A stretch of 58,085 bases of DNA from a virus. Its lineage: Duplodnaviria > Caudoviricetes. This document shows, piece after piece, positions 3,816 to 42,994 of the stretch. The notes below the pieces were generated by a model. That model saw nothing but the letters and a program-made list of their open reading frames with translations. It was not told the DNA's origin and did no database searches. The position numbers were made by a program, and so were the translations under genes. How positions within the stretch are numbered: the stretch's first letter is position 1; the number at the start of each line of letters is the position of its first letter. The stretch spans positions 1 to 58,085 of the IMG/VR virus record IMGVR_UViG_3300047199_000067; one strand, given 5' to 3'.

Positions 3816-4010
3816 AAAGGAGGAAAGTGAGTATGAAGATACAGCGCAGAACTTTTGAGGCGAATAAATATCCTAAAGGAAGTCCTGAACGTAATCGGCT
3901 CAATGAAGACCCTTTGACGAGCGAGTATATGCCAAGCTATCGGTATATCGAATTTATAGGCCCAGAAAAACATAAGGTCTTGTTCAGGACAAAGAAGGAG
4001 GCGATTGATA

Positions 4011-4967: not shown

Positions 4968-4968
4968 T

Positions 4969-6289: not shown

Positions 6290-6554
6290 CAAGACAATAG
6301 GTGTTGTATTAAGGTTTTGGACGAATGATTTTACGGTCAAGCACGGGGACAGAACCGCTACGGCTTGTTGGGAGCAGGGTGTTATGAAGCTTGAGGCTAA
6401 TGCTACAAAAGGCATAAAGAACGTCAACCCTGAACCGTTCAATTGTTTAGAGGATATTGTACCATTGATAAAAGAGTTGTTCCGTAACCAAGGAATATTG
6501 ATGGTAAGTGCCAATAAACGCCCACGGATAATGAACCCTAAAAGAAGAAGTTAG
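6276..6554 (+). CDS. Hypothetical protein
   Basis: Likely start ATG 6276 after GGAG. Confidence 0.55.
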   Translation: MKKDNKTIGVVLRFWTNDFTVKHGDRTATACWEQGVMKLEANATKGIKNVNPEPFNCLEDIVPLIKELFRNQGILMVSANKRPRIMNPKRRS

Positions 6555-6649
6555 GACTTTCGCCCCTCGTATACCCTATAAAGCCCCCAGTAAAACCTTA
6601 CGAGTTTGGGTTCTGCTGGGCTATTCCAGCATACCCTATATAAAGACAC

Positions 6650-6685
6650 TCCCCAAGAGGCGGCTCTGCCTCTTGGGGATTTTTT
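6650..6685 (+). terminator. Intrinsic terminator ending the early gene block
   Basis: TCCCCAAGAGGC/GCCTCTTGGGGA perfect stem followed by T6. Confidence 0.85.
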
Positions 6686-6712
6686 GTGGCTGAAATGGTT
6701 GAAAAATTTTTC

Positions 6713-6741
6713 TTGACAAAGTCGGTAATATCTTATAATAT
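6713..6741 (+). promoter_or_regulatory. Sigma70-type promoter for the replication module
   Basis: TTGACA at 6713, then TAATAT at 17 bp (overlapping TATAAT at 15 bp); directly after terminator. Confidence 0.7.
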
Positions 6742-6770
6742 ATCATAACACAGTTTGAAAGGAGGCGATT

Positions 6771-6968
6771 ATGCAGAAGACAGTATACTTTCCTGACGAT
6801 ACCGTTACTAATGGCATTATGGAGCGGTCTGGTTTTCTGATGAAGGAGTACAGGGTTAGTTTTTCTGAAATTGTTTATCAAGCCCTGAAAGATTTTGTAT
6901 CCGTCAAAAGACCTAAACCTAAAAATGGAGATTTCCGTAATGCTAAATTTGCAAATCTGCGAGGATAA
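6771..6968 (+). CDS. Small ribbon-helix-helix-like DNA-binding protein
   Basis: N-terminal KTVYFPD strand, SFSEIVYQALKDF helix; AGGAGG SD. Confidence 0.5.
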   Translation: MQKTVYFPDDTVTNGIMERSGFLMKEYRVSFSEIVYQALKDFVSVKRPKPKNGDFRNAKFANLRG

Positions 6969-8619: not shown

Positions 8620-8786
8620 CTTCGACAATATAGATATAACGTATACCCGTAGGGTATAAAGTTATATCTTATTTATTAACTCTATTATAAGATATAAGTA
8701 AAATTATTCAGTATTAAGTAATAAGTAAACTATACTCAGTACTAAAACATAAAGACTTAATAACAGTATCAATAATACTAATAGCG
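8620..8786. other. Putative replication origin
   Basis: Non-coding, very AT-rich; inverted repeat AGATATAAC-TATACCC/GGGTATA-GTTATATCT at 8632-8669; directly upstream of loader, helicase and primase genes. Confidence 0.5.
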
Positions 8787-9242
8787 ATGGCACAGTATAA
8801 AGTCATACCAGAGGAACATAAAGCAAAACCAGTCGAGGAGTGGGGGACGGCGGAGCTTATCGAGTATTTTAGGGAGAAGCATAAAGAGGTAATGAGGGTA
8901 AAATCCCATAAGCCAGAAGGCTTATTGAAAATACATATCAACAGTAAGAACGTAAGGTTTTTATATGAACAGGGTAAAGAGGACTTCGGCAATATCCCAG
9001 CCAGTCAGTTGTATAAGGAGTATATGGATTGGCTGTTTGAATATAAGAGAGGGAAGGACGGCCTGATAAGATTGTGGAGTTTCAGCAATAAGGATATGAT
9101 GACGGATTTCCTGGACTATAAGAGTATGGCGGTTCAGGAGAAGGCGTTGGGAAGCCTTGACGACTTCAAGAAGGAAGAAGAAGAAAGAAAGCAGCGGGCT
9201 AAGGCGTATTTTGAAAGAGACAGAGGAGGAGAGGTCAAATGA
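8787..9242 (+). CDS. Hypothetical protein (possible replication initiator by position)
   Basis: Lies between AT-rich region and DnaC-like gene; no motif recognised. Confidence 0.45.
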   Translation: MAQYKVIPEEHKAKPVEEWGTAELIEYFREKHKEVMRVKSHKPEGLLKIHINSKNVRFLYEQGKEDFGNIPASQLYKEYMDWLFEYKRGKDGLIRLWSFSNKDMMTDFLDYKSMAVQEKALGSLDDFKKEEEERKQRAKAYFERDRGGEVK

Positions 9243-9435
9243 AAAGGAAGGTCAGTCATACGTTTCCAATTATGATTTATTACAATAAGGTCAGTAAGCA
9301 GTTAATCGGTCCATTAAACAGTAAGGATTATGTGGTTATCGCGGACAGGGGACAGAAACTACCGCCTCCCATAAATGGATTGCCAGAGGGGGTGGAGGTA
9401 AGAGAGGCAGACATCGTCGTTTACGAAAAGGAGAA

Positions 9436-9645
9436 ATGACAATGGCAGGGATAATCGAAAAGGAAGTCATTATTAATTGTACTGATTGTAACAAAGATTT
9501 TACCTTGTCCGTAAAAGACCAGGAGTTTTATAAAAGGATAGGGTATGTCTTACCCAAAAGATGTTTGGAGTGCAGGAAAAAGAGAAGGTTGAAAAGGGAG
9601 GACAAAAGAGGAGAGAAGAAGTCGGAGAGCGGGAACAGGAGATAA
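9436..9645 (+). CDS. Zinc-ribbon domain protein
   Basis: CTDC...F....Q.FY...G...PKRC..CR pattern. Confidence 0.7.
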   Translation: MTMAGIIEKEVIINCTDCNKDFTLSVKDQEFYKRIGYVLPKRCLECRKKRRLKREDKRGEKKSESGNRR

Positions 9646-9723
9646 AGCAGGACGGGGCGTAGGTTTGGGCAAATGCAGGTATCCCTAAAGACGCTCAAGT
9701 TTGCGCCCCATATTTAAGCAGGA

Positions 9724-10473
9724 GTGAAAATGGAAAAGGATTATTCGAAAGAGTTGAGAGGCGTAGTTGAAATGACTCCGTGGCAGGTCGCAGAGATTAG
9801 AGAGTTGAAGAAACGTATTATGGCGCAGGAAGGAGGGGCGGGAGAGAAGGAGAAAGAGTTTCAATGGCAGGTCAGGTTATTGGCGTCTAATATGCCTCAT
9901 ATATATTGGGGGTTAGAATTAAAGGATTTCGGGGGAGATATAAAGTCGGCTACCATAGTACAAAAATATATCGGTATAATGAAAGAAGCATACGAGGCAG
10001 GACAGGGGATATTATTTTTAGGGCGGCACGGGACGGGTAAGACAATGCTCGCCTGTATCATAGGCAAAGAGGCGATGAGGAAGGGATATACGGTATATTA
10101 TATCGGCATACCAAGTTTGATTGACGGCATTATGTCGGGGTTTAGGAATGAGGAGGCTAAGGAGAGGTTGAGTACTATCGTAACAAGGACCGAGTTTCTT
10201 ATCATAGACGACCTCGGCAAGGAGTATAGGGGCATAGGTCAGAAGCTCGACCCTTTAGTAATGTTAGAGATGGATAGGATATTAAGAGAGAGGATTAACA
10301 GAGGCAAGGTTACTATCGCAACGACTAATTATGATATGAAAGCGGTTACAAAGGCATACGGGGATAGTGTACTTTCGGTATTAAGAGGATACGTCCAATT
10401 CATAGAGGTAAGCGGAGAGGACTTTCGAGGATATTTAGGGGACAAGTTTAAGGAGAGGCTCGAAAAGAAATGA
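9724..10473 (+). CDS. DnaC/IstB-like AAA+ helicase loader
   Basis: GRHGTGKT Walker A, LIIDDLGKE Walker B, TIATTN, G.DFR. Confidence 0.85.
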   Translation: MKMEKDYSKELRGVVEMTPWQVAEIRELKKRIMAQEGGAGEKEKEFQWQVRLLASNMPHIYWGLELKDFGGDIKSATIVQKYIGIMKEAYEAGQGILFLGRHGTGKTMLACIIGKEAMRKGYTVYYIGIPSLIDGIMSGFRNEEAKERLSTIVTRTEFLIIDDLGKEYRGIGQKLDPLVMLEMDRILRERINRGKVTIATTNYDMKAVTKAYGDSVLSVLRGYVQFIEVSGEDFRGYLGDKFKERLEKK

Positions 10474-11804
10474 ATGACGCTGGAAATTTTGAAAGAGATA
10501 TTATAACGGGTATGCTCAAGGGGTATAGTCCGAAGAAGGTGCTTGTCCAATTCACGCAGGAATATTTTACCACGAAAGAGATGAGGGCGATATATATTAT
10601 CTCAAAGGAGTATTATGAGAAGTTCGGAGAAATGCCTGATTTGGATATCATAGTAAATGAAACCGCCAAGCGTACAACCGCTAACGCTGATGAACTTACT
10701 AAGATGAGGATGTTTATAGAAAAGGCGATGACGTCAAGTATGGATGAAGGCAAGTATGTATATGCGGTTGAGGAGATGCAGAAGTTTTATATTTCGAGAA
10801 GGCTCAAGGATACAATACGGGAAGCCCTTGTTTATGTGGAGAAGGGACAGCCAGCACAGGCACAGGATTATATGTTGAGTAATCTTATTGACTTGTCCAC
10901 GTCGGGCAGGGATGTGGTGATGATTGATTTCGTGGACGGGTTTGAGGAGAGGAAAAAGAGTCTTTTAAGGAGGGCGGAGAACCCCGATATATTAAAGGAG
11001 TTCTGTATACCGACAGGCATACCAGAGATTGATGAGGAGTTGGACGGAGGGTTAAGGAAGGGAGAGTTCGGGCTATGGCTTGCCGCCCCCGAAGGAGGAA
11101 AGAGCATATCCTTACAGAATATCGCCGTCAATGTCGCATTGGCGGGGTATAATGTCGCATTGATTACTATTGAAATGACACCAGAGCAGACCGCTTACAG
11201 GCTTGACTCGTCATTGACGGGCATAAAATATAAAGGGTTTAGGAGAGCGAAGATAACCGCAGACGAATTACAGCATTGGGCGGATAGTGTAAAAAGGTTG
11301 CCGAAGAACAGGCTTAAAATCATAGGCGTGCCAGAAGGATGTACCTGCCGTCTTATCGAAGCGGAGTTGCAAAAGATAAAAGGTATGTTTAATCCTGATA
11401 TAATTCTTGTTGATTATGCGGGGATAATGAGCCCCAACGAAGGGAAGTACCAAAGCAGTATGGATTGGAAATACGTTGGCGAGATAGTAAGGAATTTAAA
11501 GGGGCTGGCATTGAAACTCAATATCCCTATATGGAGTGCGTCGCAGTTATTGGTAGGCTCAAAAGAGAAGGAGAGTGTGTCTTTCGGAGATATAGGATTA
11601 GCAAGACAGCAGATTGCGGCTCACGCTGACGTATGTATCGCTATCGTAAGGACTCAACAGATGATTGAAATGGAGCAGGCGAGGTTGCAGTTTGTCAAGG
11701 CAAGAGAGGGAGTATTAAAGAGGATAGTGGACGTCATAACTGATTTCGATAAGATAAGGTTAAGCGTAACAGGCAAGAAAGAGGAGGAGGTCGTTCCGTT
11801 TTGA
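10470..11804 (+). CDS. dnaB: DnaB-like replicative helicase
   Basis: IPTG..EID..L.GG, APEGGKS, TIEM, VDYA, SASQ. Confidence 0.9.
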   Translation: MNDAGNFERDIITGMLKGYSPKKVLVQFTQEYFTTKEMRAIYIISKEYYEKFGEMPDLDIIVNETAKRTTANADELTKMRMFIEKAMTSSMDEGKYVYAVEEMQKFYISRRLKDTIREALVYVEKGQPAQAQDYMLSNLIDLSTSGRDVVMIDFVDGFEERKKSLLRRAENPDILKEFCIPTGIPEIDEELDGGLRKGEFGLWLAAPEGGKSISLQNIAVNVALAGYNVALITIEMTPEQTAYRLDSSLTGIKYKGFRRAKITADELQHWADSVKRLPKNRLKIIGVPEGCTCRLIEAELQKIKGMFNPDIILVDYAGIMSPNEGKYQSSMDWKYVGEIVRNLKGLALKLNIPIWSASQLLVGSKEKESVSFGDIGLARQQIAAHADVCIAIVRTQQMIEMEQARLQFVKAREGVLKRIVDVITDFDKIRLSVTGKKEEEVVPF

Positions 11805-31603: not shown

Positions 31604-31657
31604 AGGGATATCTGCATTTGCTCTTAACAGAGGAAAGGCGGATATCCCTTTTTCTTT
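31604..31657 (+). terminator. Leader hairpin + T-tract between promoter and queD (attenuator-like)
   Basis: AGGGATATCTGC/GCGGATATCCCT stem with inner CTCT/AGAG hairpin, followed by a T-rich tract. Confidence 0.6.
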
Positions 31658-31697
31658 GTATCCTACCTGCAAGCCCCTCAATTATATAGGAGGTTGT

Positions 31698-32084
31698 ATG
31701 TATCTGATAAAGAGCGAAGGCTCGTTTGATTCGGCTCATAAGCTCAAGGGCTATAAAGGCAAGTGTAGTCGGCTTCACGGCCACCAATGGCGATTTGAAG
31801 CCACTTTTGCTTTTTATGGTAAGCTTGATAAAATAGGGATTAGCATAGACTTTAAAGAGGTTAAGAATTGGCTAAAAGAGGTTGAGGAGAGATACGACCA
31901 TAAGCTATTGGTCTTTAAGCCAAACTCGACGGCAGAGGTTATAGTAAAAAAGATTTATGAGTTGTTGTCAGCGCATAACAAGGAAGGCGTTATAAGAGTC
32001 GCTAAGGTAGCCTTGTGGGAGACTCCGAATAATTGTATAGAGTATTATGAGGGGGTAGAGTCAGGAGGGGTGTTGAAATGTTAA
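31698..32084 (+). CDS. queD: 6-carboxy-5,6,7,8-tetrahydropterin synthase
   Basis: FDSAH, CSRLHGH, DH, STAE, WETP. Confidence 0.92.
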   Translation: MYLIKSEGSFDSAHKLKGYKGKCSRLHGHQWRFEATFAFYGKLDKIGISIDFKEVKNWLKEVEERYDHKLLVFKPNSTAEVIVKKIYELLSAHNKEGVIRVAKVALWETPNNCIEYYEGVESGGVLKC

Positions 32085-32686
32085 TTAATGAAATGTTTTT
32101 ATCCTTACAGGGCGAAGGATATGAGTCGGGCGAGTTGACCTATTTTATAAGAACGGCTCGTTGTAATCTCCAATGCTCGTGGTGCGATACTAAGTTCCAA
32201 GACCCTGCAACAGAGATGAGGGTGTTAGAGGTTATAGGCAAGGTAAGCAGGTGCGGGATAAAGAATATCTGTATCACAGGCGGAGAGCCGTTGCTTGAGG
32301 AGGACTTCTATCAATTGGAGGAGTGGCTATTTAAGGCAGGGTACAATACAGTCGTAGAGACGAACGGGAGCATATCAATAGAGAATATAAAATCTCAAGT
32401 TGCTATGGATATTAAGCCGCCGAGTAGCGGTATGGCGGAGCAGTTTTTGAGAGAAAATCTTGACCGTTTAAAGCCTAATGACCAGGTCAAGTTTATCATA
32501 CAAGACATCAAGGATTATGATTATGCAAAAGAAATGTTAAAGGATATAAAGCAGGGTAAGGTTATTTTTATGCCTGTGTGGGATGAGAAGTTCAAAGCAG
32601 CAAAGGATTTGGCAAGATGGATAATGGCGGACAGGCTATCGGTTCGATTGAGCCTTCAAATGCACAAGATACTGCATTTAAAGTAA
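32078..32686 (+). CDS. queE: 7-carboxy-7-deazaguanine synthase
   Basis: SLQGEG, CNLQCSWCDT, TGGEP, ETNG, Q.HK. Confidence 0.93.
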   Translation: MLINEMFLSLQGEGYESGELTYFIRTARCNLQCSWCDTKFQDPATEMRVLEVIGKVSRCGIKNICITGGEPLLEEDFYQLEEWLFKAGYNTVVETNGSISIENIKSQVAMDIKPPSSGMAEQFLRENLDRLKPNDQVKFIIQDIKDYDYAKEMLKDIKQGKVIFMPVWDEKFKAAKDLARWIMADRLSVRLSLQMHKILHLK

Positions 32687-33093
32687 GCTGGCAGGATTTT
32701 GCAGAGATTATGGACCAGCTCGTGCGGAGAGTGCCGAGATATAATACCTATGTCGGGATAGCCCTCGGTGGGCTATTCCCTGCGGCGTTTCTGGCTAAGT
32801 TTTATGACGCCGAGTTTATGTTTATGCAGTTTAAGCATTATAAAGACAGACAGAAATTAGAGAACGTTCGGTGGGGAGGTAATTACGGCAGACCGTACGG
32901 TAGCGTATTGATAGTAGACGACGTATCTGATACGGGAGAGACGCTGATAATGGCTCAAAAGCAAATGCCGTGGGCGGATACGTTAACATTATTCGTTAAG
33001 CCGCAGACAAAGTTTAAACCGACGTATTTTTGGTCTGAAACTGATAGATGGATAGAGTATCCTTGGGAGAGAAGCATTGAAAAGAGACCATAA
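32617..33093 (+). CDS. Type I purine phosphoribosyltransferase (Gpt-like)
   Basis: VLIVDDVSDTGETL PRPP loop; WIEYPWE C-terminus; start uncertain. Confidence 0.85.
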   Translation: MDNGGQAIGSIEPSNAQDTAFKVSWQDFAEIMDQLVRRVPRYNTYVGIALGGLFPAAFLAKFYDAEFMFMQFKHYKDRQKLENVRWGGNYGRPYGSVLIVDDVSDTGETLIMAQKQMPWADTLTLFVKPQTKFKPTYFWSETDRWIEYPWERSIEKRP

Positions 33094-33610
33094 TTTAATA
33101 AGGAAAGCTATAAGAGATTTTTTGATTGGCTTGGGAGAAGACCCTGAAAGGGATGGTATTAAGGAAACGCCTGATAGGGTAGCCCGTATGTGGATGGGGT
33201 TTAATGGTGAAGAAAAGCCATATCTCAAGACCTTTAAGTGCGAATACAGTGAAATGGTAGTAGTAAAGGAGTTGCCTTTTTACAGTTTTTGTGAACATCA
33301 TCTTGTCCCGTTCTTTGGAGTGGCTAAGATAGGATATTTACCTAAAAAGAAGGTGTTGGGGTTAAGCAAGGTGGCAAGGATTTTAGACTTTTATGCTCTA
33401 CGTCCGCAGATACAAGAACAGTTGACAATGCAGGTTGCGAAAGACCTGATGTCATTATTAAAGCCGAGCGGGGTGGGGGTTATCATAGAAGCGGAGCACC
33501 TTTGTATGTCAATGAGGGGAGTCAAGAAACCAGGTCATAGAACCGTAACAAGTTGCTTATTGGGTAAGTTCCAAGACGCAAAGGTCAGGGAGGAGTTCTT
33601 GAAGCTATGA
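33077..33610 (+). CDS. folE: GTP cyclohydrolase I
   Basis: ETPDRVARM, CEHHL.PF, GLSK..R, QIQE, H.CM.MRG. Confidence 0.95.
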   Translation: MKRDHNLIRKAIRDFLIGLGEDPERDGIKETPDRVARMWMGFNGEEKPYLKTFKCEYSEMVVVKELPFYSFCEHHLVPFFGVAKIGYLPKKKVLGLSKVARILDFYALRPQIQEQLTMQVAKDLMSLLKPSGVGVIIEAEHLCMSMRGVKKPGHRTVTSCLLGKFQDAKVREEFLKL

Positions 33611-33954
33611 ATAGGATATGGGTTTGGTGTACTTTTGAGTTTGAGGGTTTTCATAGATGGGCGGGTGCGCCCGATAGCGTGGAGTATTTAAGAACCAAGC
33701 ACAGGCATTTATTCAAGTGCAAGGTGTGGGTAGAGGTCAGGCACGAGGATAGAGAGATTGAGTTCATAACATTGAAGCACGATTGTCAAAAGGCATTAGG
33801 GGTATTGGATATAGAAAGAGTGGGGTCGTGCGAGGTGGTTGCAGGAACGATATTGATGGAGCTCAAAAAGATATATCCTAAAAGGATGATGATGGCAGAG
33901 GTAAGTGAGGACGGAGAGTGCGGAGCGAGGGTTGAGTTAGATGATAGGGAATAG
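33607..33954 (+). CDS. QueD-like T-fold protein, DpdL-like CDG decarboxylase candidate
   Basis: FEGFH, LxxxHRHxF (LRTKHRHLF), REIEF, SCE, VSEDGE; motif matches DpdL as recalled. Confidence 0.65.
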   Translation: MNRIWVWCTFEFEGFHRWAGAPDSVEYLRTKHRHLFKCKVWVEVRHEDREIEFITLKHDCQKALGVLDIERVGSCEVVAGTILMELKKIYPKRMMMAEVSEDGECGARVELDDRE

Positions 33955-34924
33955 GATGATAGATTTAGAGAAAATCAAAGGCAATATACCAACCTGCATA
34001 CAGGTAGATTGGCAGAGAGAGGTGTATATACATAATCGTATGCTTGCAAACCCGCACGGGGTTGAGTATCCCAGGGTCTATCAGCTTGAGACGACGAGTG
34101 TATGTAACCTGAATTGTGTATTCTGCCCAAGAAAGAATCTCATAAGACCAAGACAAGATATGAGTCAAGATTTATTTAAGACTATTGCTGACAGAGATTT
34201 ACGATGGACAACAGCCATTGAGTTATTCGGGTTTGGAGAGCCATTATGCGACCAGAACTATCCTGCCAGAGTAGAGTATCTCAAGTCATTAGGTAAGTAT
34301 ATCGTGGTCGCTTCAAACTGTCTTTTGGCTGACCGTATGCCTGATAGTTTATGGAAGATGGTTGACTATCTCGTCATCGATGTTGACGCAGTAAATAAAG
34401 AGCATTATGAGGCGGTCAGGGTTGGCGGTAGCTGGGAGAAGATGAAAGAGAACGTACAAAAAGTCCTGGCTATCAGAAAAGCAGCTCAAAAGTACAGCGT
34501 AGTGCAGTATATAGATTATGAATCGGAGGAAGAAGACAAGCAGAAATTTATAGCAGAGTATACAGGTCTGGCTGATGAGATAAGAGTCAAGTTCCTGGAT
34601 ACTTTCGCTGGACAAGTCCTTGAGGGAGAGCCGCAGAAAGAGGTCTGTTGCCTTGAACCTTTATATGGCGTGTCTATATGGAGCAACGGTGATGTGGTGA
34701 TGTGTGATAGAGACTTCAACGCTATCAACAGGCTTGGCAATGTAGGTGAGCATAGCTTAATGGATATATGGGGAAGCGATAAGGTGCAGTTTACCCAGAA
34801 TAGACATAAGGAATACAGGGGAGAAAGTCTGACTCCCTGCGACCAATGTAAGGAGTGGGTGTTAACGAATTTAAGAAACGTGCCTGAACTGACGGTCAAT
34901 ATGTTCAGGGGAGGTTTTGTATGA
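33941..34924 (+). CDS. Radical SAM enzyme with SPASM/twitch domain
   Basis: CNLNCVFC, GFGEP, C-terminal C..P...G.V..C...C..C. Confidence 0.88.
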   Translation: MIGNRMIDLEKIKGNIPTCIQVDWQREVYIHNRMLANPHGVEYPRVYQLETTSVCNLNCVFCPRKNLIRPRQDMSQDLFKTIADRDLRWTTAIELFGFGEPLCDQNYPARVEYLKSLGKYIVVASNCLLADRMPDSLWKMVDYLVIDVDAVNKEHYEAVRVGGSWEKMKENVQKVLAIRKAAQKYSVVQYIDYESEEEDKQKFIAEYTGLADEIRVKFLDTFAGQVLEGEPQKEVCCLEPLYGVSIWSNGDVVMCDRDFNAINRLGNVGEHSLMDIWGSDKVQFTQNRHKEYRGESLTPCDQCKEWVLTNLRNVPELTVNMFRGGFV

Positions 34925-35982
34925 TTTGGTTTGTGCCTTTAGAACGGCTTGAGGAACGTTATACCAGTCAGATGTATAATTGGGTGATTGACGGCTTACA
35001 AAGAGCTAATGTCAGGTATAAGGTTATAGAAGGCAAGCCTCTAACAAGAGGAGTAGAAACGGGAGAGGTATTGGACGCAGAAGGCACTAACTATTATAAG
35101 GCGTCGCAGCTTATGGAGATATGCCAGCTATTCAAGTATAATGAGATAAAGAACGGGGACACGTTTTTTATAGCTGACTTGTGGTTTCCTGGGATAGAGA
35201 CGATAAGATATATCGAAGCCCAGAGGCGTATGCAGGTCAATATAGCTGGCGTCCATTATGCTGGAGTATTCGATAAGCACGATTTTGTTCATAAGATGAA
35301 GCATTGGGCTATGTATAATGAGCTTGGCTGGTTAAAGCTGGCGAATTGGATATTCGTAGGGAGCGAATATCATAAGTCTTTAATAGTGCAAGGGATGTAC
35401 GATAATGGCATACAGGACGCACAGTATAAGATATACGCAACGGGGCTGGTGTGGGACGCCGAGTATGTAAAGTCTGACGTGAAGCGTAAGGAGAGGCAGG
35501 TCATATTCCCGCACAGGACAGATATGGAGAAGAACCCGAAGGACTTCTTTACTCTGGCTGACATTATGAGGCAGACAGACGAGGGGGTTAAGTTCGTAAT
35601 CACCAGCTCAAGAAAGCACCTATCAAGCAATATACAGAATTTTGAAATCCCTTATTATATAACCTATAAGTGCGGGCTTACAAAGCAGGAGTATTATGAT
35701 GAGCTTGCAAGGTCAAAGGTCTTGTTCTCAAGCGCACACCAGGAGACGTTTGGTTATGCGTTGAATGAGGGTTTACAGTTAGGGTGTATCCCGATTTGTC
35801 CTAACCGATTGTCTTATCCAGAAGTTGTGGAACACGATGAACGATTATTGTATGACAGCATATCAGAGGCGGTAGTAAAGGTTAAAGCGGCGTTGGAAGC
35901 CGATTGGGACATACGGTATTATACGAACAAGTACTCAAAGAATATAGACAGGATGTTAGAGATAATGGAGGTAGATAAGTAA
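34921..35982 (+). CDS. GT-B (GT4-like) glycosyltransferase
   Basis: FPHR...EK.P, QETFG....E....G..P..P.RLSYPE. Confidence 0.85.
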   Translation: MIWFVPLERLEERYTSQMYNWVIDGLQRANVRYKVIEGKPLTRGVETGEVLDAEGTNYYKASQLMEICQLFKYNEIKNGDTFFIADLWFPGIETIRYIEAQRRMQVNIAGVHYAGVFDKHDFVHKMKHWAMYNELGWLKLANWIFVGSEYHKSLIVQGMYDNGIQDAQYKIYATGLVWDAEYVKSDVKRKERQVIFPHRTDMEKNPKDFFTLADIMRQTDEGVKFVITSSRKHLSSNIQNFEIPYYITYKCGLTKQEYYDELARSKVLFSSAHQETFGYALNEGLQLGCIPICPNRLSYPEVVEHDERLLYDSISEAVVKVKAALEADWDIRYYTNKYSKNIDRMLEIMEVDK

Positions 35983-37835
35983 TGCGCGTTTATCTTGCAG
36001 GAGCAGAGATGCACGGAAGACCTGAATTGCTTTTAGGGCAAAAGGTCAAGTATGTTCTCGGTTCTTATTATTATATGAGGGATAAAAGGGACGGCGGTAT
36101 TGAACGCCTTAAAGGATATAAGGAAGCAGGTTGTGAGATATTTGTAGATTCAGGAGCGCATACGTTCTTTAGTGAGCTTGGTATGGGACACGGGGTCGTG
36201 GTTACGAAGGAGACAAAGACACAGGAGAGTTATGAGGAGTATTTCGAGAAGTACCTTACCTGGCTATTGACAGTAAAGGATATAGTAAGCTGCTATGTAG
36301 AGCTTGACATACAGGAGATAGTAGGGCAGGTGCAGATATGGGAGTGGAGAAGAAGGATGCGAGAGGTAGGGTTAGACCCCATAGTAGTATTGCACCCTAA
36401 AGCAAGCGATAACGTGGACAAGGAGTGGGATAGGTTGACAAGCGAGTTCACTTACTGCGCCATAGAAGGAAGCCTCCCGACCAATAGGTATGTGGGCTGG
36501 CTGACGATGAGCGAGAAGAAGAAGGTCAGGGTACACGGCTTCGCAATGACTAAGGTAGACGAGATGAGGAGATGTAAGTTCTACTCTGTTGACTCTACTT
36601 CTTGGACATCGGGCGGACGCTTCGGAGGAACTTACTTTTACCGTGGTGGTGGGCGTATGGAGGCATTTGGAAAAGATGAGAAGCGAGGCAGGGTACGGTT
36701 CAAGCAATCATTAATAAAGGCAGGCATAGATTGGGAAGCCCTTGAGAGGGACGACAACACAGAGATAGATAGGATGAACTGTTTCGCCTGGAAGCAGTTT
36801 GCAGATTGGGCAGACCGCTACCTCTTAACTAATTATGAGAGGGAAGTAGAGGGCAAAGGTCAGCAACCAAGTCAACCAATCCAACCCATAGGAGAAGGAA
36901 GGATAGCGGAGGGTACGGGAGAGTTCCTAAAGGGAGAGATACCAGCAGAGGCATTGGAGGGAGCAGTAGAGTTACCAGAGAGGAAGGAAAGAGTAGAGGA
37001 AGGTAGTAGCCTTATCAAGGAAGGCAGTAACGGTAGCGTAGAGGGGGGTAATGTAGGAGGGAGTTCTGATTCTGGTTCTTATTCTGGAGTAGTTTCTAAA
37101 GAAGTTTATAAAGAGGATAAAGGAAGCGAGGGGGGCGGAGAGGGGAAACCGAAACTCTTAAATGGGGTAGCCGATACTTTTGTGGAGAACAAGGGCAATA
37201 TACAGCAAATCCTCAAGGAAAACCCTCTTGTTGAGGAGCAGAGGCGTAAAACTTTATCGGTAGTCAAAAAGGGGAATATTGATACGCTCAAGCACGGAAG
37301 GTATGCAAGCGACCCTGTTATTTATTGTAGAGAGAATTGTCCCAAGTTCGATAGTTGCCCTCATAAGATTGGCGTGGGTTCGATATGTTATTTTGATACA
37401 AGATGGCGTCCTATCGTCGAGAGAATACAAAGCACGCAACCAGAAGTAATCCTCGAAGCTCTGGTGATGTTCGTAAGGACACAGCTCCCAAGGTTAGCAA
37501 AGAACCAGGGGTTTGAAAGCATAGATGGAGGTTACATAGATAAGAACGTAACCATATTAGCTGATAGAATATTCCAATGGCTAAAGGACATACACGTACT
37601 AATGACTCCGAAGCAACCATTAGTCCAAGTGGGTGGCGACCTAACCATACAGAAGATTGAGAACATAGTGGATAGGCTACCTGCCGATAAAGCCAAGAAG
37701 ATAGGGGACGCTATATGCGAGGTAGAGTGTATAGATACAGAGGGGGATAAGTTCGGAGGAGAGGAAAGTATTGAGGCAGAGGTAGTAAAGGAAGTCACAG
37801 AGGATAAAGAGAAAGTAGAGGAAGGTAAGCAATAG
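35982..37835 (+). CDS. TGT/DpdA-like base-exchange domain fused to a Cys-rich terminase-small-subunit-like C-terminus
   Basis: N-domain FVDSGAHT, ELD, HGF, SVDSTSW; acidic Gly-rich linker; KGNIDTLKHGRYA + four-Cys cluster + helical region; upstream of TerL with no separate TerS seen. Confidence 0.7.
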   Translation: MRVYLAGAEMHGRPELLLGQKVKYVLGSYYYMRDKRDGGIERLKGYKEAGCEIFVDSGAHTFFSELGMGHGVVVTKETKTQESYEEYFEKYLTWLLTVKDIVSCYVELDIQEIVGQVQIWEWRRRMREVGLDPIVVLHPKASDNVDKEWDRLTSEFTYCAIEGSLPTNRYVGWLTMSEKKKVRVHGFAMTKVDEMRRCKFYSVDSTSWTSGGRFGGTYFYRGGGRMEAFGKDEKRGRVRFKQSLIKAGIDWEALERDDNTEIDRMNCFAWKQFADWADRYLLTNYEREVEGKGQQPSQPIQPIGEGRIAEGTGEFLKGEIPAEALEGAVELPERKERVEEGSSLIKEGSNGSVEGGNVGGSSDSGSYSGVVSKEVYKEDKGSEGGGEGKPKLLNGVADTFVENKGNIQQILKENPLVEEQRRKTLSVVKKGNIDTLKHGRYASDPVIYCRENCPKFDSCPHKIGVGSICYFDTRWRPIVERIQSTQPEVILEALVMFVRTQLPRLAKNQGFESIDGGYIDKNVTILADRIFQWLKDIHVLMTPKQPLVQVGGDLTIQKIENIVDRLPADKAKKIGDAICEVECIDTEGDKFGGEESIEAEVVKEVTEDKEKVEEGKQ

Positions 37836-37850
37836 AGAAGCAGAAATTAA

Positions 37851-37892
37851 CTATGACAAAGTATGACAATGACTATGACAAACTATGACAAA
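37851..37892. repeat. Four phased TATGACAA repeats
   Basis: Copies at 37852, 37862, 37874, 37884. Confidence 0.85.
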
Positions 37893-38124
37893 GAGAATAA
37901 GCACAGTATAAGCAGAGCCATCATATAGAGGCGAGTGTGCGAGCAAGTGTTAGATGTAAGTGGTTCTGATAAAAGAGGATATGATAAATGGGGCAAAGGA
38001 AATGTTAGAGAGGTTGAGGCAAAGTGAAATGAGAAGCGGAGAGAGGCAGGCGGAGGAGTCGGTGTTGGAAAAAATCTCCGTTTTTTGGGCGAAAATGGGC
38101 GGAGGAGGCCTCGTCAGAGTTGCC

Positions 38125-38215
38125 CCAGTTTTTTCAGTTTGGTGCTGTATTTATAAGAGTGTGAGCTGTATAATTCCCTTGCCCGTGCCGTGCCAGTTTT
38201 TTCAGTTTGGTGCTG
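38125..38215. repeat. 23-bp perfect direct repeat CCAGTTTTTTCAGTTTGGTGCTG
   Basis: Copies at 38125-38147 and 38193-38215. Confidence 0.9.
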
Positions 38216-38455
38216 GCTTTTTAAGCACAGTTTAGTGTGCATTTCGCCCCTTAACAGAGTAAAGTAAGGTCTGGTAAAGTATGGTAAACGGTCTTAAAGT
38301 GAAAGTAGGTATGGAAGAAGTGATGGAGAAGATGACCCTTGAGGTTGATGTCGTGAGGACAAGGATGTACAGGTTGAGGTTCTGGATAGGTACGCTTTTG
38401 CTGCGGCTGGGTGTTCGTGCCCTTGGCTGTGGCATAAGGTTTAAGGAGAATAAGG

Positions 38456-40060
38456 ATGCCAGATAAGGTAACGGCAATAGAGAAGCAGGATGTAGAGCTG
38501 TTGAATGCTGTACTCGGCAGTTCAAGAGTATACAGGCAGAGGCTTGCGGCACGGAACAAGAAGTCGCTGAACTTTGATGAGTACCCTGTGGACATAGTTA
38601 CTTTTATTGAACATCACGAATACCTCAATTTGAAGGGAATTGTATGGGAGAGCGTTAAAGAGGATTTGAAGGAGATATTCAGCATAGAGAAGATGTGCCT
38701 GGGGAATAAGTTTTCGCCGTTTCAGGAAGTGGTATTAGACGAAGCAATCGGGGCGGGAAAGTCGTTCTTTACCTCGTTGGCGATTTCGTATATTGTATAC
38801 AGGCTGCTATGCTTGAAGAACCCGCAGAAGTATTACGGGTTAGCGCCTGGGTCGTTACTTGCGGTTATGAATATGAGTCCTACGGCTACGCAGGCGAAGA
38901 ACGTTGTATTCGGAGAGATTAAGGCAAGGATTGATTGTAGCGAGTGGTTTAAGGAACACGGGGGGCTGGATGATAAGATTAAGAGCGTATTGAGGTTTGA
39001 TAAGGGGATTACGATACTGCCTGGAAATAGTTCAGAGGCATTTCCGTTAGGATATAACTTGATTGCGTGGGTGATGGATGAAGGGGCGTTTTATACGGAT
39101 ACGCCAGAACACGATGTGGCGCAGGAGATTTATTATGCCCTGATGAGGAGGTCGCAGTCAAGGTTCAGGGATAGGTGGTTAGGGGTTATGATAAGTTCTC
39201 CGAGATATGTTGATGATTTTATAGAGAGGAAGATGACGGAGTCAAGGATTTACCCAGAGGTAATATACAGCAAGAGGAGAGCCATTTGGGAAGCCAAGCC
39301 AGAAGACGTTGAGAGCGTCAAGAAGAAGGAGACGTTCGAGCTGGATGGGTCGGAGATACCTTTGGTTTATAAGAAGACCTTTGAAGATAATCCCGATAAG
39401 GCGTGGAGGGATTTAGGGGCAAGACCTTCTTTGGTATTAGAGCCGTACTTTAAGCAGTGGAGGTTGGTTGAGGAGGGGTTGGATAGCAGTATGGCGCACC
39501 CGATGGATGAGAACGGATTGTTCTTTGATTGGTTCAAAGGGAACGCAAGCTATCTATATTATGCCCATATAGACTTGGCGTTGAGGACGGATGCCTGCGG
39601 TGTGGCGGTAGCCCACAAAGAGGACGACACGGTGATAGTAGATTTTATGCTTCGTATCAAGTCGAGGGACGGGAAAGAGATTGATTTGGCGGAGGTAAGA
39701 GGCATTATATATAAAATGATGGAAAATGGGTTCAATTTCGGCAAAGTAACGTATGACCAATTTCAGAGTGCCGAGTCGATACAGGAGTTGAATAAGAAGG
39801 GGATTATATCGGAGCAGCTTTCGGTGGATAAAGATTTGAACGCATACGAGACGCTTAAAGAGATGATATATTCGGGACGGTGCAAATATTATAAGTATGA
39901 GCCGTTTATAATGGAGATGAAAAGGCTCGAATTGGTAAAGGGGAAGAAAGTTGACCACCCCGCGAAAGGCAGCAAAGATGTAACGGATGCAGTAGCAGGC
40001 GCGGTCTTTAACGCAGTAAGCGAAGAAGGCAGCAGGATGATATATTTTAATATCCTATAA
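38456..40060 (+). CDS. terL: Terminase large subunit
   Basis: GAGKS Walker A, VMDEG Walker B, HIDLA nuclease, YDQFQS, VDHP..GSKD..DAVAG. Confidence 0.93.
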   Translation: MPDKVTAIEKQDVELLNAVLGSSRVYRQRLAARNKKSLNFDEYPVDIVTFIEHHEYLNLKGIVWESVKEDLKEIFSIEKMCLGNKFSPFQEVVLDEAIGAGKSFFTSLAISYIVYRLLCLKNPQKYYGLAPGSLLAVMNMSPTATQAKNVVFGEIKARIDCSEWFKEHGGLDDKIKSVLRFDKGITILPGNSSEAFPLGYNLIAWVMDEGAFYTDTPEHDVAQEIYYALMRRSQSRFRDRWLGVMISSPRYVDDFIERKMTESRIYPEVIYSKRRAIWEAKPEDVESVKKKETFELDGSEIPLVYKKTFEDNPDKAWRDLGARPSLVLEPYFKQWRLVEEGLDSSMAHPMDENGLFFDWFKGNASYLYYAHIDLALRTDACGVAVAHKEDDTVIVDFMLRIKSRDGKEIDLAEVRGIIYKMMENGFNFGKVTYDQFQSAESIQELNKKGIISEQLSVDKDLNAYETLKEMIYSGRCKYYKYEPFIMEMKRLELVKGKKVDHPAKGSKDVTDAVAGAVFNAVSEEGSRMIYFNIL

Positions 40061-40073: not shown

Positions 40074-41768
40074 ATGTCAGCCAAGAAAAGTTCAACCACG
40101 CTAAAGATGTTCATAACGGACGGGGGAGAGTTGTTTTCGGAGAAGGACTTAGCCCAGTACGCTATCCCGCAAAGCAAGCAGTTAGACCCAACGCCTCAAT
40201 GGGGTACGGATATCATAGCGCCGCCCTATGACCCCGTGAAACTGATGGCGTGGCTGGAGTCTAATGTCATACATAATAGCTGTGTGAGGCAGAAGGTTCA
40301 AGACAGCGTAGGGATAGGCTGGCATTTATCCGATGTCCAAAACGTCGAAAGCAAGAATGAGCATTATCAGATACTATATGGGTTTTTTAATAAGGTCAAT
40401 AATGGAGAGGATATTAATGCTGTATGCAAAAAGGTATTCCTGGACTATGAGGCGAACGGCAACGGGTGTATCGAGGTAGCAAGAGGAGTGGAGACAATAC
40501 CAGGAGTCGAGAAATACATAGCGGCGTTATATCACGTAAACTCGACCACAGTAAGGTGGCATAAAGATAAAGACAAGCTCGTGCAGATAGTCAACCAGAA
40601 GAAGGTCTATTTTAAGCCTTTCGGAGAAGCAAGGGTGCTGAATAAAGAGACGGGGGTATACGGCCCTGTGCCTTCGCCTGAAAAGGTTGCCAACGAGATG
40701 ATATACATTAGGCAGTACACGCATAAGTCGTACTGGTACGGTGCGCCTGAATGGCTGCCTGCCATATTCTCGATGTACGGGCAGATGAAAGAGCAGGAAT
40801 ATAACCTTGATTTTTTTGCCAATTACGGAGTGCCTGCGTATGCGGTTGTCATAACCAATATCGTAGTCAACAAAGACATTGAGAGTATGATAAAGAAGTA
40901 TTTTGAAACGGAAGTGAAGGGTAACCCGCATAAGACAATGGTATTCGGGCTTCCAAAGGGAGGAGAGGTCAAGTTCGAGAGGCTGTCCGTAGAGACTAAA
41001 GAGGCGTCGTTCAGGATATACAGGAGAGACAATAGGGATGACATCTTGACAGCTCATCACGTGCCGCCGTATAGGGTAGGTATTGTGCAACAGGGGCAGT
41101 TGGGCGGGAGCGTATCTGCTGATATGGACAGGATATATCTCGATTCCGTAATCAACCCGAGGCAGAAAGAGTTTGAATGGATAATCAACCAGCTTCTTGT
41201 CAAAGAAGGGTTCGGGATAGAAGGATGGCAGTTCAGGTTCGACGACATAGACATTGAAGATAGGAAGATGCAGGCGGACATAGACAATACGTATTTTAAT
41301 ATGGGGGTGCTGACGCCTAATGAAATGAGAAAGAGGCTTGGTAAGGCTACCTATGAGGGCGGAGACGATTACTATGTAACGGGGGCTATGATACCCGTAG
41401 GCAATGCGGTACAGCCAGAGGACAAAAGTATGCCCGATATAGAGGACTATATCAAGGATTTAGAGAAGGCGTACGAGCTGGGAGAGGAGATTAGCGACTA
41501 TAATCTATTCCTGGCGGAGCTTATTGAGAAGGGGGCTTATCATAGGGCGAGAGTGGTTGACCCTGGTAAGTTCCAGAGCGATTCATTAAGGACGATATGG
41601 ATAAGCCAGAATGAAGGGATAAAGGCTATTGTGGGCAGGCTCAAGAACGCGACAAAGACAACGATACAGGCGTACCTATTTGATAAGACGAAGTGGACAA
41701 CGGCTAAGGCTAAGCAATGGCTAAAAGACCACGACGTTAAAACGGTGGAGTTCGTGGAGGCGAGTTAA
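40074..41768 (+). CDS. Portal protein (PBSX-like) with C-terminal extra domain
   Basis: PPYDP, YG.PEW, FF.N.GVP, I..AH.VPP, G.LTPNE.R. Confidence 0.9.
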   Translation: MSAKKSSTTLKMFITDGGELFSEKDLAQYAIPQSKQLDPTPQWGTDIIAPPYDPVKLMAWLESNVIHNSCVRQKVQDSVGIGWHLSDVQNVESKNEHYQILYGFFNKVNNGEDINAVCKKVFLDYEANGNGCIEVARGVETIPGVEKYIAALYHVNSTTVRWHKDKDKLVQIVNQKKVYFKPFGEARVLNKETGVYGPVPSPEKVANEMIYIRQYTHKSYWYGAPEWLPAIFSMYGQMKEQEYNLDFFANYGVPAYAVVITNIVVNKDIESMIKKYFETEVKGNPHKTMVFGLPKGGEVKFERLSVETKEASFRIYRRDNRDDILTAHHVPPYRVGIVQQGQLGGSVSADMDRIYLDSVINPRQKEFEWIINQLLVKEGFGIEGWQFRFDDIDIEDRKMQADIDNTYFNMGVLTPNEMRKRLGKATYEGGDDYYVTGAMIPVGNAVQPEDKSMPDIEDYIKDLEKAYELGEEISDYNLFLAELIEKGAYHRARVVDPGKFQSDSLRTIWISQNEGIKAIVGRLKNATKTTIQAYLFDKTKWTTAKAKQWLKDHDVKTVEFVEAS

Positions 41769-42658: not shown

Positions 42659-42994
42659 ATGGATAAAAGAAAAATGTCTAAAACACAAAAGCACAAGGCT
42701 AAAATAGCGACCGCTTTGTTGAATAATAAGAATGCTTTTAAGGGTGGCAGAAGGATTGGTTATAGTGGTTATGTTGAAATACGGGATAAGGATAGGGGTC
42801 GGAGCTATGTATATGAGCATCGTATTGTGATGTCGAAACATCTTGGTCGAGACTTAGAACCCTGGGAGTTTGTTCATCATAAAAATGGCGTTAGAACGGA
42901 TAATCGTATAGATAATTTAGAAATAGTATTTAGGAATAGACATTATGGGAGGGTAAGATGTCCGTATTGCCTACAAGAATTTTTAGTTCAATAG
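42659..42994 (+). CDS. HNH homing endonuclease
   Basis: YEHRIVM..HLGR.L...E.VHH.NG...DNR..NL. Confidence 0.88.

What the first reader, a model, noticed from the sequence alone, without database searches (positions are those of the whole stretch)
35982..37835. TGT/DpdA-like enzyme fused to a probable terminase small subunit: modification coupled to packaging
Seen: about 290 aa of TGT-like barrel, a long acidic Gly/Glu linker, then KGNIDTLKHGRYA (resembling the GNxNAxKHG motif of many TerS proteins), a four-Cys cluster and helices. It sits just before a repeat-rich spacer and terL, and no other TerS is visible. Inference: an oligomeric TerS carrying tethered base-exchange domains could modify DNA during translocation, mark the pac site, or read the modification to package only self DNA.
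Basis: partly seen in the sequence, partly recalled or inferred. Interest (0 to 1): 0.88.

Follow-up and report, generated by a model that had tools for sequence, protein, structure and literature searches.

The report
DpdA enzyme fused to putative small terminase
One phage gene joins a DNA base-swapping enzyme (DpdA) to a four-cysteine, helical module that in related phages sits where the small terminase subunit belongs, so DNA modification may be physically tied to DNA packaging.

Summary
ORF 35982-37835 (617 aa) has three parts. Residues 1-282 are a DpdA/TGT-fold barrel (phrog_887 E 2.4e-41; Foldseek to TGT E 3e-6). Residues 283-395 are an acidic Gly/Glu/Ser linker. The C-terminal module has the N-x4-KHG-x-YA motif, four Cys and a helical hairpin. 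A repeat-rich 620-nt spacer, terL and the portal gene follow.

The fusion is not an artefact. It recurs in cultured phages BCD7 and BRock, in 12 of 27 usable distant homologues, and in four other contigs.

The module is homologous (hhalign 97.5%, E 8e-12) to the C-part of Gordonia/Tsukamurella phage proteins labelled 'terminase small subunit'. These lie directly before the same terL lineage. That label rests on gene position only (PMC4524720).

Phages of this terL lineage with an ordinary HTH-coil ORF before terL lack the module. None of 48 other window ORFs matches a TerS family. A TerL x module complex prediction gave only weak support (0.55 against a best control of 0.02). No curated or solved TerS matches.

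Best reading, confidence about 0.55: this is a small terminase whose DNA-recognition domain is replaced by DpdA. Coupling of modification to packaging is inferred, not shown.

The parts
35982..37835 (+). Whole ORF, 617 aa: DpdA barrel, acidic linker, C-module, acidic tail
35982..36827 (+). DpdA / TGT-fold barrel, residues 1-282. Holds V-D-S-G-A-H (D56, invariant) and S-V-D-S-T-S-W (D204)
   Evidence: phrog_887; AF2 pLDDT 87.7; Foldseek to TGT E 3.3e-6; alignment A6; positions
36828..37166 (+). Acidic Gly/Glu/Ser linker, residues 283-395. Length varies among homologues
   Evidence: composition; alignments; no family match
37167..37736 (+). Conserved C-module, residues 396-585: leader helix KGNIQQIL, N-x4-KHG-x-YA motif, four-Cys knuckle, helical hairpin, then a less confident strand/helix part
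   Evidence: phmmer, 30 hits; alignment A1; hhalign to Woes gp6 97.5%; own HMM; AF2 pLDDT 78
37266..37307 (+). Motif KKGNIDTLKHGRYA, residues 429-442. Family consensus G-N-x4-K-H-G-x-Y-A
   Evidence: In relative P0027 the segment with this motif matches phrog_509 and phrog_1889 'terminase small subunit'. An intein-like insert sits inside it in P0031
37323..37394 (+). Four-Cys cluster C449, C453, C459, C469; a probable metal-binding knuckle
   Evidence: all four are at least 90% conserved; pLDDT 82-90. The metal is not determined
37440..37604 (+). Antiparallel helical hairpin, residues 487-541, with the F-E-x-x-D-G-G-x-x-D-K-x-V motif at the turn
   Evidence: AF2 block pLDDT 89-98; only generic hairpin matches, Z about 8
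37737..37832 (+). Acidic C-terminal tail, residues 586-617 (10 E of 32). Candidate TerL-docking tail (inferred)
   Evidence: It was included in the partner chain
37836..38455 (.). Spacer: 4x ACTATGACAA (37850-37891), 2x GGCGGAGGAG, 2x 33-nt repeat (38125, 38193). About 100 nt (roughly 38045-38150) are shared with the spacer of relative L023
   Evidence: no Rfam family
38456..40060 (+). terL, 534 aa, of the Woes / TIN2 / Jay2Jay / DLP_3 lineage
40074..41768 (+). Portal protein
   Evidence: PF04860 E 2e-28; phrog_12 E 1.6e-56
31656..35982 (+). Upstream 7-deazaguanine gene block: QueD 31656-32084, QueE 32078-32686, PRTase 32617-33093, FolE 33077-33610, DpdL-like 33607-33954, radical-SAM/SPASM 33941-34924, GT1 glycosyltransferase 34921-35982
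   Evidence: DpdL signature from a PMC10516641 passage; no QueC

Best explanation
The ORF makes one protein with two folded parts on a flexible acidic tether.

Part 1 (residues 1-282) is a DpdA-type DNA guanine transglycosylase. The adjacent genes are FolE, QueD, QueE and a DpdL-like gene, and there is no QueC. With these, Part 1 most likely exchanges guanine in phage DNA for 7-deazaguanine or a derivative.

Part 2 (residues 396-617) is a conserved module: a leader helix, the N-x4-KHG-x-YA motif, a four-Cys knuckle, a helical hairpin and an acidic tail. It is the shared core of proteins that occupy the small-terminase position directly before this terL lineage.

I read the protein as the phage's small terminase subunit, with the usual N-terminal HTH DNA-recognition domain replaced by the DpdA barrel. 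On this reading the hairpins would build the TerS oligomer and the C-terminal part would dock on TerL. The knuckle/KHG segment and the DpdA domains would contact DNA. Base exchange would then be tethered to the complex that selects and threads the concatemer.

Shown here: domain identities, homology, recurrent synteny, and exclusivity with ordinary TerS-like ORFs.

Inferred: oligomerisation, TerL docking, DNA and pac recognition, and any coupling in time of modification and packaging.
For: (1) The DpdA identity is secure, and deazaguanine genes lie next door.

(2) The fusion is a family trait. BRock gp36 and BCD7 gp21 share both parts (N-part E 6e-24 and 1e-25; C-part E 2e-4 and 4e-4). One search gave 30 hits; I dropped P0008 as spurious and P0009 and P0011 as fragments. 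Of the remaining 27, 12 are DpdA fusions, 1 looks like a truncated fusion, 10 are free-standing (178-265 aa), 3 have other N-termini and 1 is a fragment.

(3) The C-module matches Woes gp6 at hhalign probability 97.5%, E 7.9e-12. My own HMM scores TIN2 Orf1 at 1e-21 and Woes gp6 at 9e-19. Free-standing relatives hit phrog_6902 'terminase small subunit' down to E 7e-13.

(4) In 8 of 8 Gordonia/Tsukamurella phages for which I have both positions, the module lies just upstream of terL: Woes and TIN2 by annotation; Luker, Amore2, Linetti, SteveFrench, Niagara and Demosthenes by coordinates. Their terL is of the window's lineage (E 1e-58 to 1e-68 to L011/L012).

(5) In L009, L011 and L012 the DpdA::module ORF abuts or overlaps terL, preceded by FolE, a DpdL-like gene and a GT. 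In L023, a 75% relative, it precedes terL across an 856-nt spacer.

(6) Jay2Jay, DLP_3, PG28 and RHph_Y1_11 share the terL lineage and have an HTH/coiled-coil ORF before terL. All 4 of 4 lack the module genome-wide at E<=0.01, while the positive control Woes scores 2.6e-19.

(7) None of 48 other window ORFs hits a TerS PHROG. No TerS is annotated in BRock or BCD7 in the regions I listed (BRock 1-11,731 was not listed).

(8) Complex prediction of TerL with residues 425-617 gave weak support. The score was 0.55 (runs 0.02, 0.59, 0.55) against a best of 3 controls of 0.02. The mark was reached by 58 of 80 solved complexes and 2 of 110 mismatched pairs. At 0.60 or under it was reached by only 7 of those 80 and by both mismatches. 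Runs agree in at least 56% of contacts and the partner's pLDDT is at least 57. My own alignments were used, so these counts hold only roughly.

(9) In relative P0027 the segment carrying the GNKNAIKHG motif matches phrog_509 (E 1.8e-6) and phrog_1889 (E 9.5e-4), both 'terminase small subunit'.
Against: No curated TerS family (Pfam) and no TerS PHROG matches the window protein directly.

No solved TerS was found by sequence, by Foldseek or by VIA-align, which returned only generic hairpins tied at Z about 8.

The 'terminase small subunit' name of phrog_6902 members rests on gene position (PMC4524720 passage).

In BRock the fusion lies about 71 kb from terL. In BCD7 it lies 31-59 kb away on the circular map. 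In BS162P1 the split pair lies about 49 kb away. In all three it sits among DNA-metabolism genes.

Nearly half of the homologues are DpdA fusions, which equally fits a DpdA accessory domain.

The window has a 620-nt spacer where terS-terL pairs usually abut. The record is 64% complete, and many small ORFs have no family.

The complex score is a weak pass, and one of its three runs scored 0.02.

Oligomerisation was not tested.
Confidence: 0.55

Rival explanations
1. The C-module is a DNA-binding or DNA-loading accessory of DpdA: a metal knuckle plus dimerising hairpin that lets the barrel work on duplex DNA. It would play a role like the partner protein of bacterial DpdA (DpdB is recalled, not tested). 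It would have no role in packaging, and the true TerS would be an unrecognised small ORF or lie in the missing 36% of the genome.
For: 12 of 27 usable homologues are DpdA fusions. In BS162P1 the module is a separate ORF right after dpdA. In BRock, BCD7 and BS162P1 the gene lies with replication and nucleotide genes, far from terL. There is no direct match to any curated or solved TerS. Three relatives give weak, sub-threshold hits of the Cys segment to the Cys-rich end of a transposase family (PF13751, E 0.008-0.015).
Against: The same module sits, without any detectable DpdA, in the ORF before terL in Gordonia/Tsukamurella phages. Their N-terminal 285 aa show no DpdA likeness (hhalign probability 0.2%). 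The module is absent from 4 of 4 sister phages that have an HTH-coil ORF before terL. The fusion abuts terL in L009, L011 and L012 with no room for another ORF. The TerL complex prediction gave a weak pass of 0.55 against a best control of 0.02; the benchmark counts are given in the main explanation.
Confidence: 0.28
2. The module is a terminase-associated adaptor that is not itself the pac-recognising TerS. It would recruit various DNA-acting enzymes (DpdA here, an unknown 270-aa domain in Woes/TIN2) to the packaging motor or portal, alongside a separate TerS.
For: The N-terminal partners on one conserved module vary: DpdA, the Woes-type domain, others, or none. Adjacency to terL is shown. 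The TerL complex prediction gave a weak pass.
Against: No second TerS candidate was found in the window (0 of 48 ORFs). No ORF fits between the fusion and terL in L009, L011 or L012.
Confidence: 0.12
3. The fusion is an assembly or gene-calling artefact that joins two separate genes.
For: BS162P1 carries the two parts as separate adjacent ORFs. The linker is low-complexity.
Against: The frame is uninterrupted for 617 codons. The same one-ORF architecture occurs in BRock, BCD7, P0005, P0006, L009, L011, L012 and 10 further cluster representatives from independent sources.
Confidence: 0.02

Closest known systems
Phage DpdA DNA guanine transglycosylases (subfamilies DpdA1-DpdA4; PMC6884629, PMC10516641)
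   Same: TGT-fold barrel and a phrog_887 match. tblastn hits genes annotated as DpdA or queuine tRNA-ribosyltransferase in 68 phage records. Linked FolE/QueD/QueE genes and a DpdL-like gene.
   Different: This protein carries a 330-residue extension. The main texts of both papers contain no 'terminase', and neither describes a C-terminal domain or a fusion of DpdA. I did not assign a subfamily.
BCD7 gp21 (757 aa) and BRock gp36 (500 aa), the long members of phrog_887
   Same: The same two-part build: DpdA barrel, variable linker, four-Cys and hairpin module.
   Different: They are annotated only as queuine tRNA-ribosyltransferase and lie far from terL. Their terL is of another lineage (no match to the window's terL in BRock; BCD7 and BRock terL are related at E 2.6e-92).
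Gordonia/Tsukamurella phage 'terminase small subunit' (phrog_6902, phrog_16015; Woes gp6, TIN2 Orf1)
   Same: A homologous four-Cys and hairpin module (97.5%). The gene lies directly before, and overlaps, a terL of the window's lineage.
   Different: Their N-terminal 270 or so residues are not DpdA-like. The TerS role was assigned from gene position (PMC4524720). The window protein does not itself reach these PHROGs.
Canonical small terminases: N-terminal HTH, helical-hairpin oligomerisation core, C-terminal TerL-binding part (Sf6 gp1, P22 gp3, SPP1 G1P; recalled, not fetched)
   Same: Position before terL, a predicted antiparallel hairpin, and an acidic tail. Sister phages of the same terL lineage have HTH-coil ORFs in this position.
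   Different: There is no HTH; a 282-residue enzyme takes its place. A four-Cys knuckle is present. There is no sequence or fold match to solved TerS. The protein is 617 aa long.

Membership tests
DpdA (phage DNA guanine transglycosylase) | TGT-like (beta/alpha)8 barrel fold | tested here: met
   AF2 pLDDT 87.7. The 50 Foldseek rows shown are all TGT, best E 3.3e-6, probability 1.00.
DpdA (phage DNA guanine transglycosylase) | Sequence membership in a DpdA family profile | tested here: met
   phrog_887 E 2.4e-41. tblastn to annotated DpdA genes of 68 phage records, best E 4e-14.
DpdA (phage DNA guanine transglycosylase) | Two acidic active-site residues (the D-S-G and D-x-x-x-W segments) | tested here: inconclusive
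   D56 is invariant in 14 of 14 fused homologues; D204 is kept in 12 of 14. That these equal the catalytic Asp of TGT is recalled, not aligned here.
DpdA (phage DNA guanine transglycosylase) | Co-encoded 7-deazaguanine synthesis genes | tested here: met
   FolE PF01227 E 3e-65; QueD phrog_2389; QueE phrog_2076; a DpdL-like ORF with LRTKHRHLF. QueC is absent.
DpdA (phage DNA guanine transglycosylase) | Base-exchange activity on DNA | not testable with these tools
   Needs LC-MS of phage DNA or an enzyme assay.
tRNA-guanine transglycosylase (Pfam PF01702) | Match to the curated Pfam model | tested here: not met
   No Pfam family at E<=10 for residues 1-300 or for the whole protein.
Small terminase subunit (TerS) | Gene directly upstream of terL on the same strand | tested here: met
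   The stop is at 37835 and terL starts at 38456. The genes overlap or abut in L009, L011 and L012.
Small terminase subunit (TerS) | Match to a curated TerS family | tested here: not met
   No Pfam match. No TerS PHROG for the window protein. The only link is through relatives.
Small terminase subunit (TerS) | N-terminal HTH DNA-binding domain | tested here: not met
   The N-terminus is a DpdA barrel.
Small terminase subunit (TerS) | Helical-hairpin core that forms a ring oligomer | tested here: inconclusive
   A hairpin is predicted with block pLDDT 89-98. Fold matches are generic. Oligomerisation was not tested.
Small terminase subunit (TerS) | Binds TerL | tested here: inconclusive
   Weak support: 0.55 against a best control of 0.02. 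The mark was reached by 58 of 80 solved complexes and 2 of 110 mismatched pairs. At 0.60 or under it was reached by only 7 of those 80 and by both mismatches.
phrog_6902 / phrog_16015 (Gordonia-type 'TerS') | Four-Cys and hairpin C-module | tested here: met
   hhalign 97.5%, E 7.9e-12. Own HMM: TIN2 1e-21, Woes 9e-19.
phrog_6902 / phrog_16015 (Gordonia-type 'TerS') | The family's N-terminal domain of about 270 aa | tested here: not met
   hhalign of Woes gp6 residues 1-285 against the DpdA alignment: probability 0.2%.

The most novel reading that the evidence does not exclude
There is a widespread class of chimeric small terminases in which a DNA-modifying enzyme (DpdA) replaces the DNA-recognition domain. 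A ring of tethered base-exchange domains would sit on the packaging motor. It would insert 7-deazaguanine into the concatemer as it is chosen and threaded. Alternatively, it would use base-flipping by DpdA to recognise the packaging site, so that only modified self DNA enters capsids.
Probability: 0.3. Interest if true: 0.88.

Novelty: new variant of a known kind. Interest (0 to 1): 0.72.

Why it matters
Phage 7-deazaguanine modification is described as post-replicative (PMC10516641 abstract and discussion passages). When and where DpdA meets the DNA is not addressed in the passages I read.

If the reading holds, a DpdA tied to the terminase would give a concrete, testable answer: modification at or near packaging.

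It would also define a new small-terminase family (four Cys plus hairpin) with swappable N-terminal heads. That would fill the missing TerS in the listed regions of BRock and BCD7 and in the Woes-type Gordonia phages.

It would also explain why the deazaguanine genes lie next to the terminase genes. Adjacency has been noted for rosebushviruses (PMC10484667 passage).

Two cultured phages, BRock and BCD7, carry the fusion, so the idea can be tested at the bench.

Tried and rejected
Pfam gave nothing for the whole protein, its three parts, or 20 relatives. Only sub-threshold hits appeared: PF13751, WhiB, and Sf6_terminase at 0.078 for P0021.

Sequence searches against PDB found nothing useful, either with the single protein or with the profile A6 (two chance hits at E 0.4-1).

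Foldseek of the C-module model against PDB gave 0 matches at E<=1e-3. BFVD returned mainly unnamed family members and the Gordonia phage Jumbo 'TerS' at E 0.077. VIA-align wide returned only helical hairpins tied at Z 7.4-8.2.

ESM Atlas scores were all under 0.9. The nearest named clusters were DUF5681 and T5_Terminase_small at 0.84, which are leads only.

tblastn of the window's C-part against phages found no match. Relatives were needed as stepping stones.

These related-loci scans found nothing: P0004, A7 in viral contigs, A7 in metagenome contigs, P0017 and P0020. The genomic context of the free-standing and HTH-like forms therefore stays unknown. Some 'free-standing' forms may be truncated calls.

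My reading that P0021 and P0025 have TerS-like HTH N-termini rests on weak evidence. P0025 hits phrog_645 'Rnase E' at E 1e-11.

I rejected the idea that the Woes gp6 N-domain is a hidden DpdA.

I looked for an internal start that would make a free module. I saw no convincing start or ribosome-binding site at 37050-37290 and make no claim.

L010 was a chance hit. P0008, with 26 matched stretches, is a Cys-repeat chitin-binding-type protein and is spurious.

Rfam and tRNA scans of the window were empty. No terminator-like site was found in the spacer.

Literature: seven searches and 'find' passages in four papers turned up no description of a DpdA-TerS fusion.


Full report
What is there. The window is a 58,085-bp IMG/VR virus record, linear, which CheckV rates 64% complete. 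Nearly all genes lie on the + strand. ORF 35982-37835 is open for 617 codons. Pfam gives nothing for it. PHROG 887, 'queuine tRNA-ribosyltransferase', matches at E 2.4e-41, and the match runs from residue 1 to 581 on profile positions 10-484 of 509. The family profile itself therefore includes a long C-terminal part. Split up, residues 1-300 score E 3.7e-36, the linker scores nothing, and residues 411-617 alone still hit positions 360-485 of the same profile at E 3.3e-4.

N-terminal domain. An AF2 model of residues 1-300, built on 14 fused homologues, has pLDDT 87.7 and pTM 0.87, with alternating strands and helices. Foldseek finds 274 PDB chains at E<=1e-3. The 50 rows shown are all tRNA-guanine transglycosylase, best E 3.3e-6 and probability 1.00. 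D56 in V-D-S-G-A-H is invariant in the 14 rows. D204 in S-V-D-S-T-S-W is kept in 12 of 14; P0019 has S and P0020 has G. That these are the two catalytic Asp of TGT is my recollection, not a result.

Upstream genes. Upstream lie QueD (31656), QueE (32078), a phosphoribosyltransferase (32617), FolE (33077), a 115-aa QueD-like ORF (33607), a radical-SAM/SPASM protein (33941) and a GT1 glycosyltransferase (34921). The 115-aa ORF carries LRTKHRHLF. This fits the LxxxHRHxF signature that PMC10516641 gives for DpdL, the proposed 7-carboxy-7-deazaguanine decarboxylase, found in phages with DpdA, FolE, QueD and QueE but no QueC (passage). QueC is absent from the record (PF06508: 0 hits; the control rang in 14 of 14 genomes). 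The predicted base is therefore 7-deazaguanine or a derivative. This is inference.

C-terminal module. phmmer with residues 425-585 against 1.84 billion cluster representatives gave 30 hits at E<=1e-3. I dropped three. P0008 is a 3349-aa Cys-repeat protein of chitin-binding type and is spurious. P0009 and P0011 are fragments of 114 and 81 aa. Of the remaining 27 (alignment A1):
- 12 are DpdA fusions.
- P0029 looks like a 5'-truncated fusion.
- P0007 is a fragment.
- 10 are free-standing proteins of 178-265 aa that start with Met.
- 3 have other N-termini.

The conserved features are a leader helix (K-I-x-x-I-L-K-x-N-P-x-x-E-x-K-R), G-N-x4-K-H-G-x-Y-A, four Cys, and R...F-E-x-x-D-G-G-x-x-D-K-x-V-x-x-L. 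One fusion, P0031, has an intein-like insert inside the KHG motif.

AF2 on this alignment gives pLDDT 78. It shows a Cys knuckle and then a confident antiparallel hairpin (helices 63-89 and 97-117 of the piece, which are residues 487-513 and 521-541). The strand-like part after it has low confidence. Fold searches give no specific relative.

Is the fusion real? BRock gp36 (500 aa) and BCD7 gp21 (757 aa) share both parts with the window protein. In Bacteroides phage BS162P1 the two parts are adjacent separate ORFs. The fusion is an old, recurrent architecture and not an assembly artefact.

Link to terminase. Free-standing relatives match both the C-part of phrog_887 and phrog_6902 or phrog_16015, 'terminase small subunit', down to E 7.1e-13. 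tblastn with P0017 hits 88 Gordonia, Tsukamurella, Rhodococcus and Bacillus phage records. In TIN2 and Woes the module is the C-part (roughly aa 270-390) of a 447- or 465-aa ORF that overlaps the start of terL, with the portal gene next. For six more phages the coordinates put the module 190-440 nt before the terL match, which makes 8 of 8. hhalign of Woes gp6 against A1 gives probability 97.5%, E 7.9e-12. My own HMM of the module finds the window, L009, L011, L012, BCD7, TIN2, Woes, BS162P1 and BRock, and nothing else in the loci held. The N-terminal 285 aa of Woes gp6 are not DpdA-like (probability 0.2%).

The small-terminase label in this phage group comes from gene position. PMC4524720 states that the small terminase was recognised as the gene upstream of, and co-directional with, the large one (passage).

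Synteny of the fusion. Three viral contigs reached through relatives carry FolE, a DpdL-like gene, a GT, the DpdA::module ORF and terL, with the last two ORFs overlapping as called: by 53, 44 and 95 nt from the first possible start. terL in L011 and L012 is of the window/Woes/TIN2 lineage (E 1e-108; 1e-58 to 1e-68). terL in L009 is of the BCD7 lineage (E 7e-10). L023, a metagenome contig whose module is 75% identical, has the fusion end, an 856-nt spacer and then terL. About 100 nt of that spacer align with window positions of roughly 38045-38150.

Exclusivity. Jay2Jay, DLP_3, PG28 and RHph_Y1_11 share the terL lineage. Before terL they have a 162-268-aa ORF with an HTH-like N-part and long helices. 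A whole-genome search with A1 finds the module in 0 of these 4 and in the control Woes at E 2.6e-19. Conversely, those four ORFs find nothing in the six frames of the window, L009, L011, L012 or L023 at E<=10.

Other TerS. None of 48 other window ORFs reaches a TerS PHROG at E<=0.01. Many small ORFs have no family at all, and a third of the genome is missing. BRock and BCD7 have no annotated TerS in the regions I listed (BRock 1-11,731 was not listed). The small ORFs before their related terL genes are not conserved between them.

Direct test. A complex prediction of TerL (39-row alignment) with residues 425-617 (28-row alignment) returned 'weak support'. The score was 0.55 (runs 0.02, 0.59, 0.55) against a best of 3 controls of 0.02. 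The mark was reached by 58 of 80 solved complexes and 2 of 110 mismatched pairs. At 0.60 or under it was reached by only 7 of those 80 and by both mismatches. Runs agree in at least 56% of contacts, and the partner's pLDDT is at least 57. The counts hold only roughly because my own alignments were used. Given the synteny prior I take this as mild support.

Against the TerS reading:
- No curated or solved TerS matches.
- In BRock the fusion is about 71 kb from terL, in BCD7 31-59 kb, and in BS162P1 about 49 kb, in each case among DNA-metabolism genes.
- The strong tie to DpdA fits an accessory DNA-binding domain equally well.
- The window shows a 620-nt spacer rather than an overlap.
- Oligomerisation is untested.

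Verdict. The best reading, at confidence 0.55, is a small terminase whose DNA-recognition head is a DpdA enzyme. The main rival, at 0.28, is a DpdA accessory domain unrelated to packaging. Coupling of modification to packaging is an attractive inference, not a result.

Literature. In seven searches and passages of four papers I found no description of this link.

Noticed in passing
window 33607-33954, with 31656-35982: A DpdL-like ORF (LRTKHRHLF) lies with QueD, QueE and FolE but no QueC, which predicts 7-deazaguanine rather than preQ0. A phosphoribosyltransferase, a radical-SAM/SPASM protein and a GT1 glycosyltransferase in the same block are unexplained and may further modify the base. A similar FolE, DpdL-like, GT, fusion, terL order recurs in L009 and L011; L012 matches FolE, GT, fusion and terL.
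   Followed up: partly
window 37836-38455; L023 703-1558: The spacer has 4 phased ACTATGACAA copies, 2 GGCGGAGGAG copies and two 33-nt repeats. A block of about 100 nt is shared with the 856-nt spacer of a 75% relative. It could be a pac site or a late promoter. No Rfam family and no terminator-like site were found.
   Followed up: partly
protein P0031 (689 aa): An intein-like insert of about 165 residues sits exactly inside the N-x-x-[KR] / [HS]-G-x-Y-A motif of a DpdA::module fusion. This hints that the motif is functionally critical.
   Followed up: no
proteins P0019 and P0020: Two fused homologues lack the Asp of the S-V-D-S-T-S-W segment (S and G instead). Their DpdA barrel may be catalytically dead but kept, perhaps as a DNA-binding head.
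   Followed up: no
window 42659-42994: An HNH endonuclease (phrog_20891, E 4.5e-18) lies right after the portal and head-morphogenesis genes. Jay2Jay, of the same terL lineage, has a 'terminase associated' HNH after terL.
   Followed up: no
window 3213-3815: A serine-recombinase or transposase-like ORF (phrog_6620, E 3.4e-53). It could be a mobile element or a sign of a temperate lifestyle.
   Followed up: no
L022 (Bacteroides phage BS162P1, record 7957-11466): A QueD-like ORF (CFNLHGH) lies directly before terL. The terL frame is 910 aa with a split match, which suggests an insert such as an intein.
   Followed up: no
L014-L016 (DLP_3, PG28, RHph_Y1_11): The order glycosyltransferase, ParB-like protein, HTH-coil ORF, terL is conserved in three phages of the same terL lineage. 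A DNA-acting gene block before the terminase genes seems to be a lineage habit.
   Followed up: no
window 38456-40060: The protein collection tags the terL homologues with PF27249, a family that the local Pfam copy did not report for this protein. Some homologues carry names from Omnitrophota and Gallionella MAG records.
   Followed up: no
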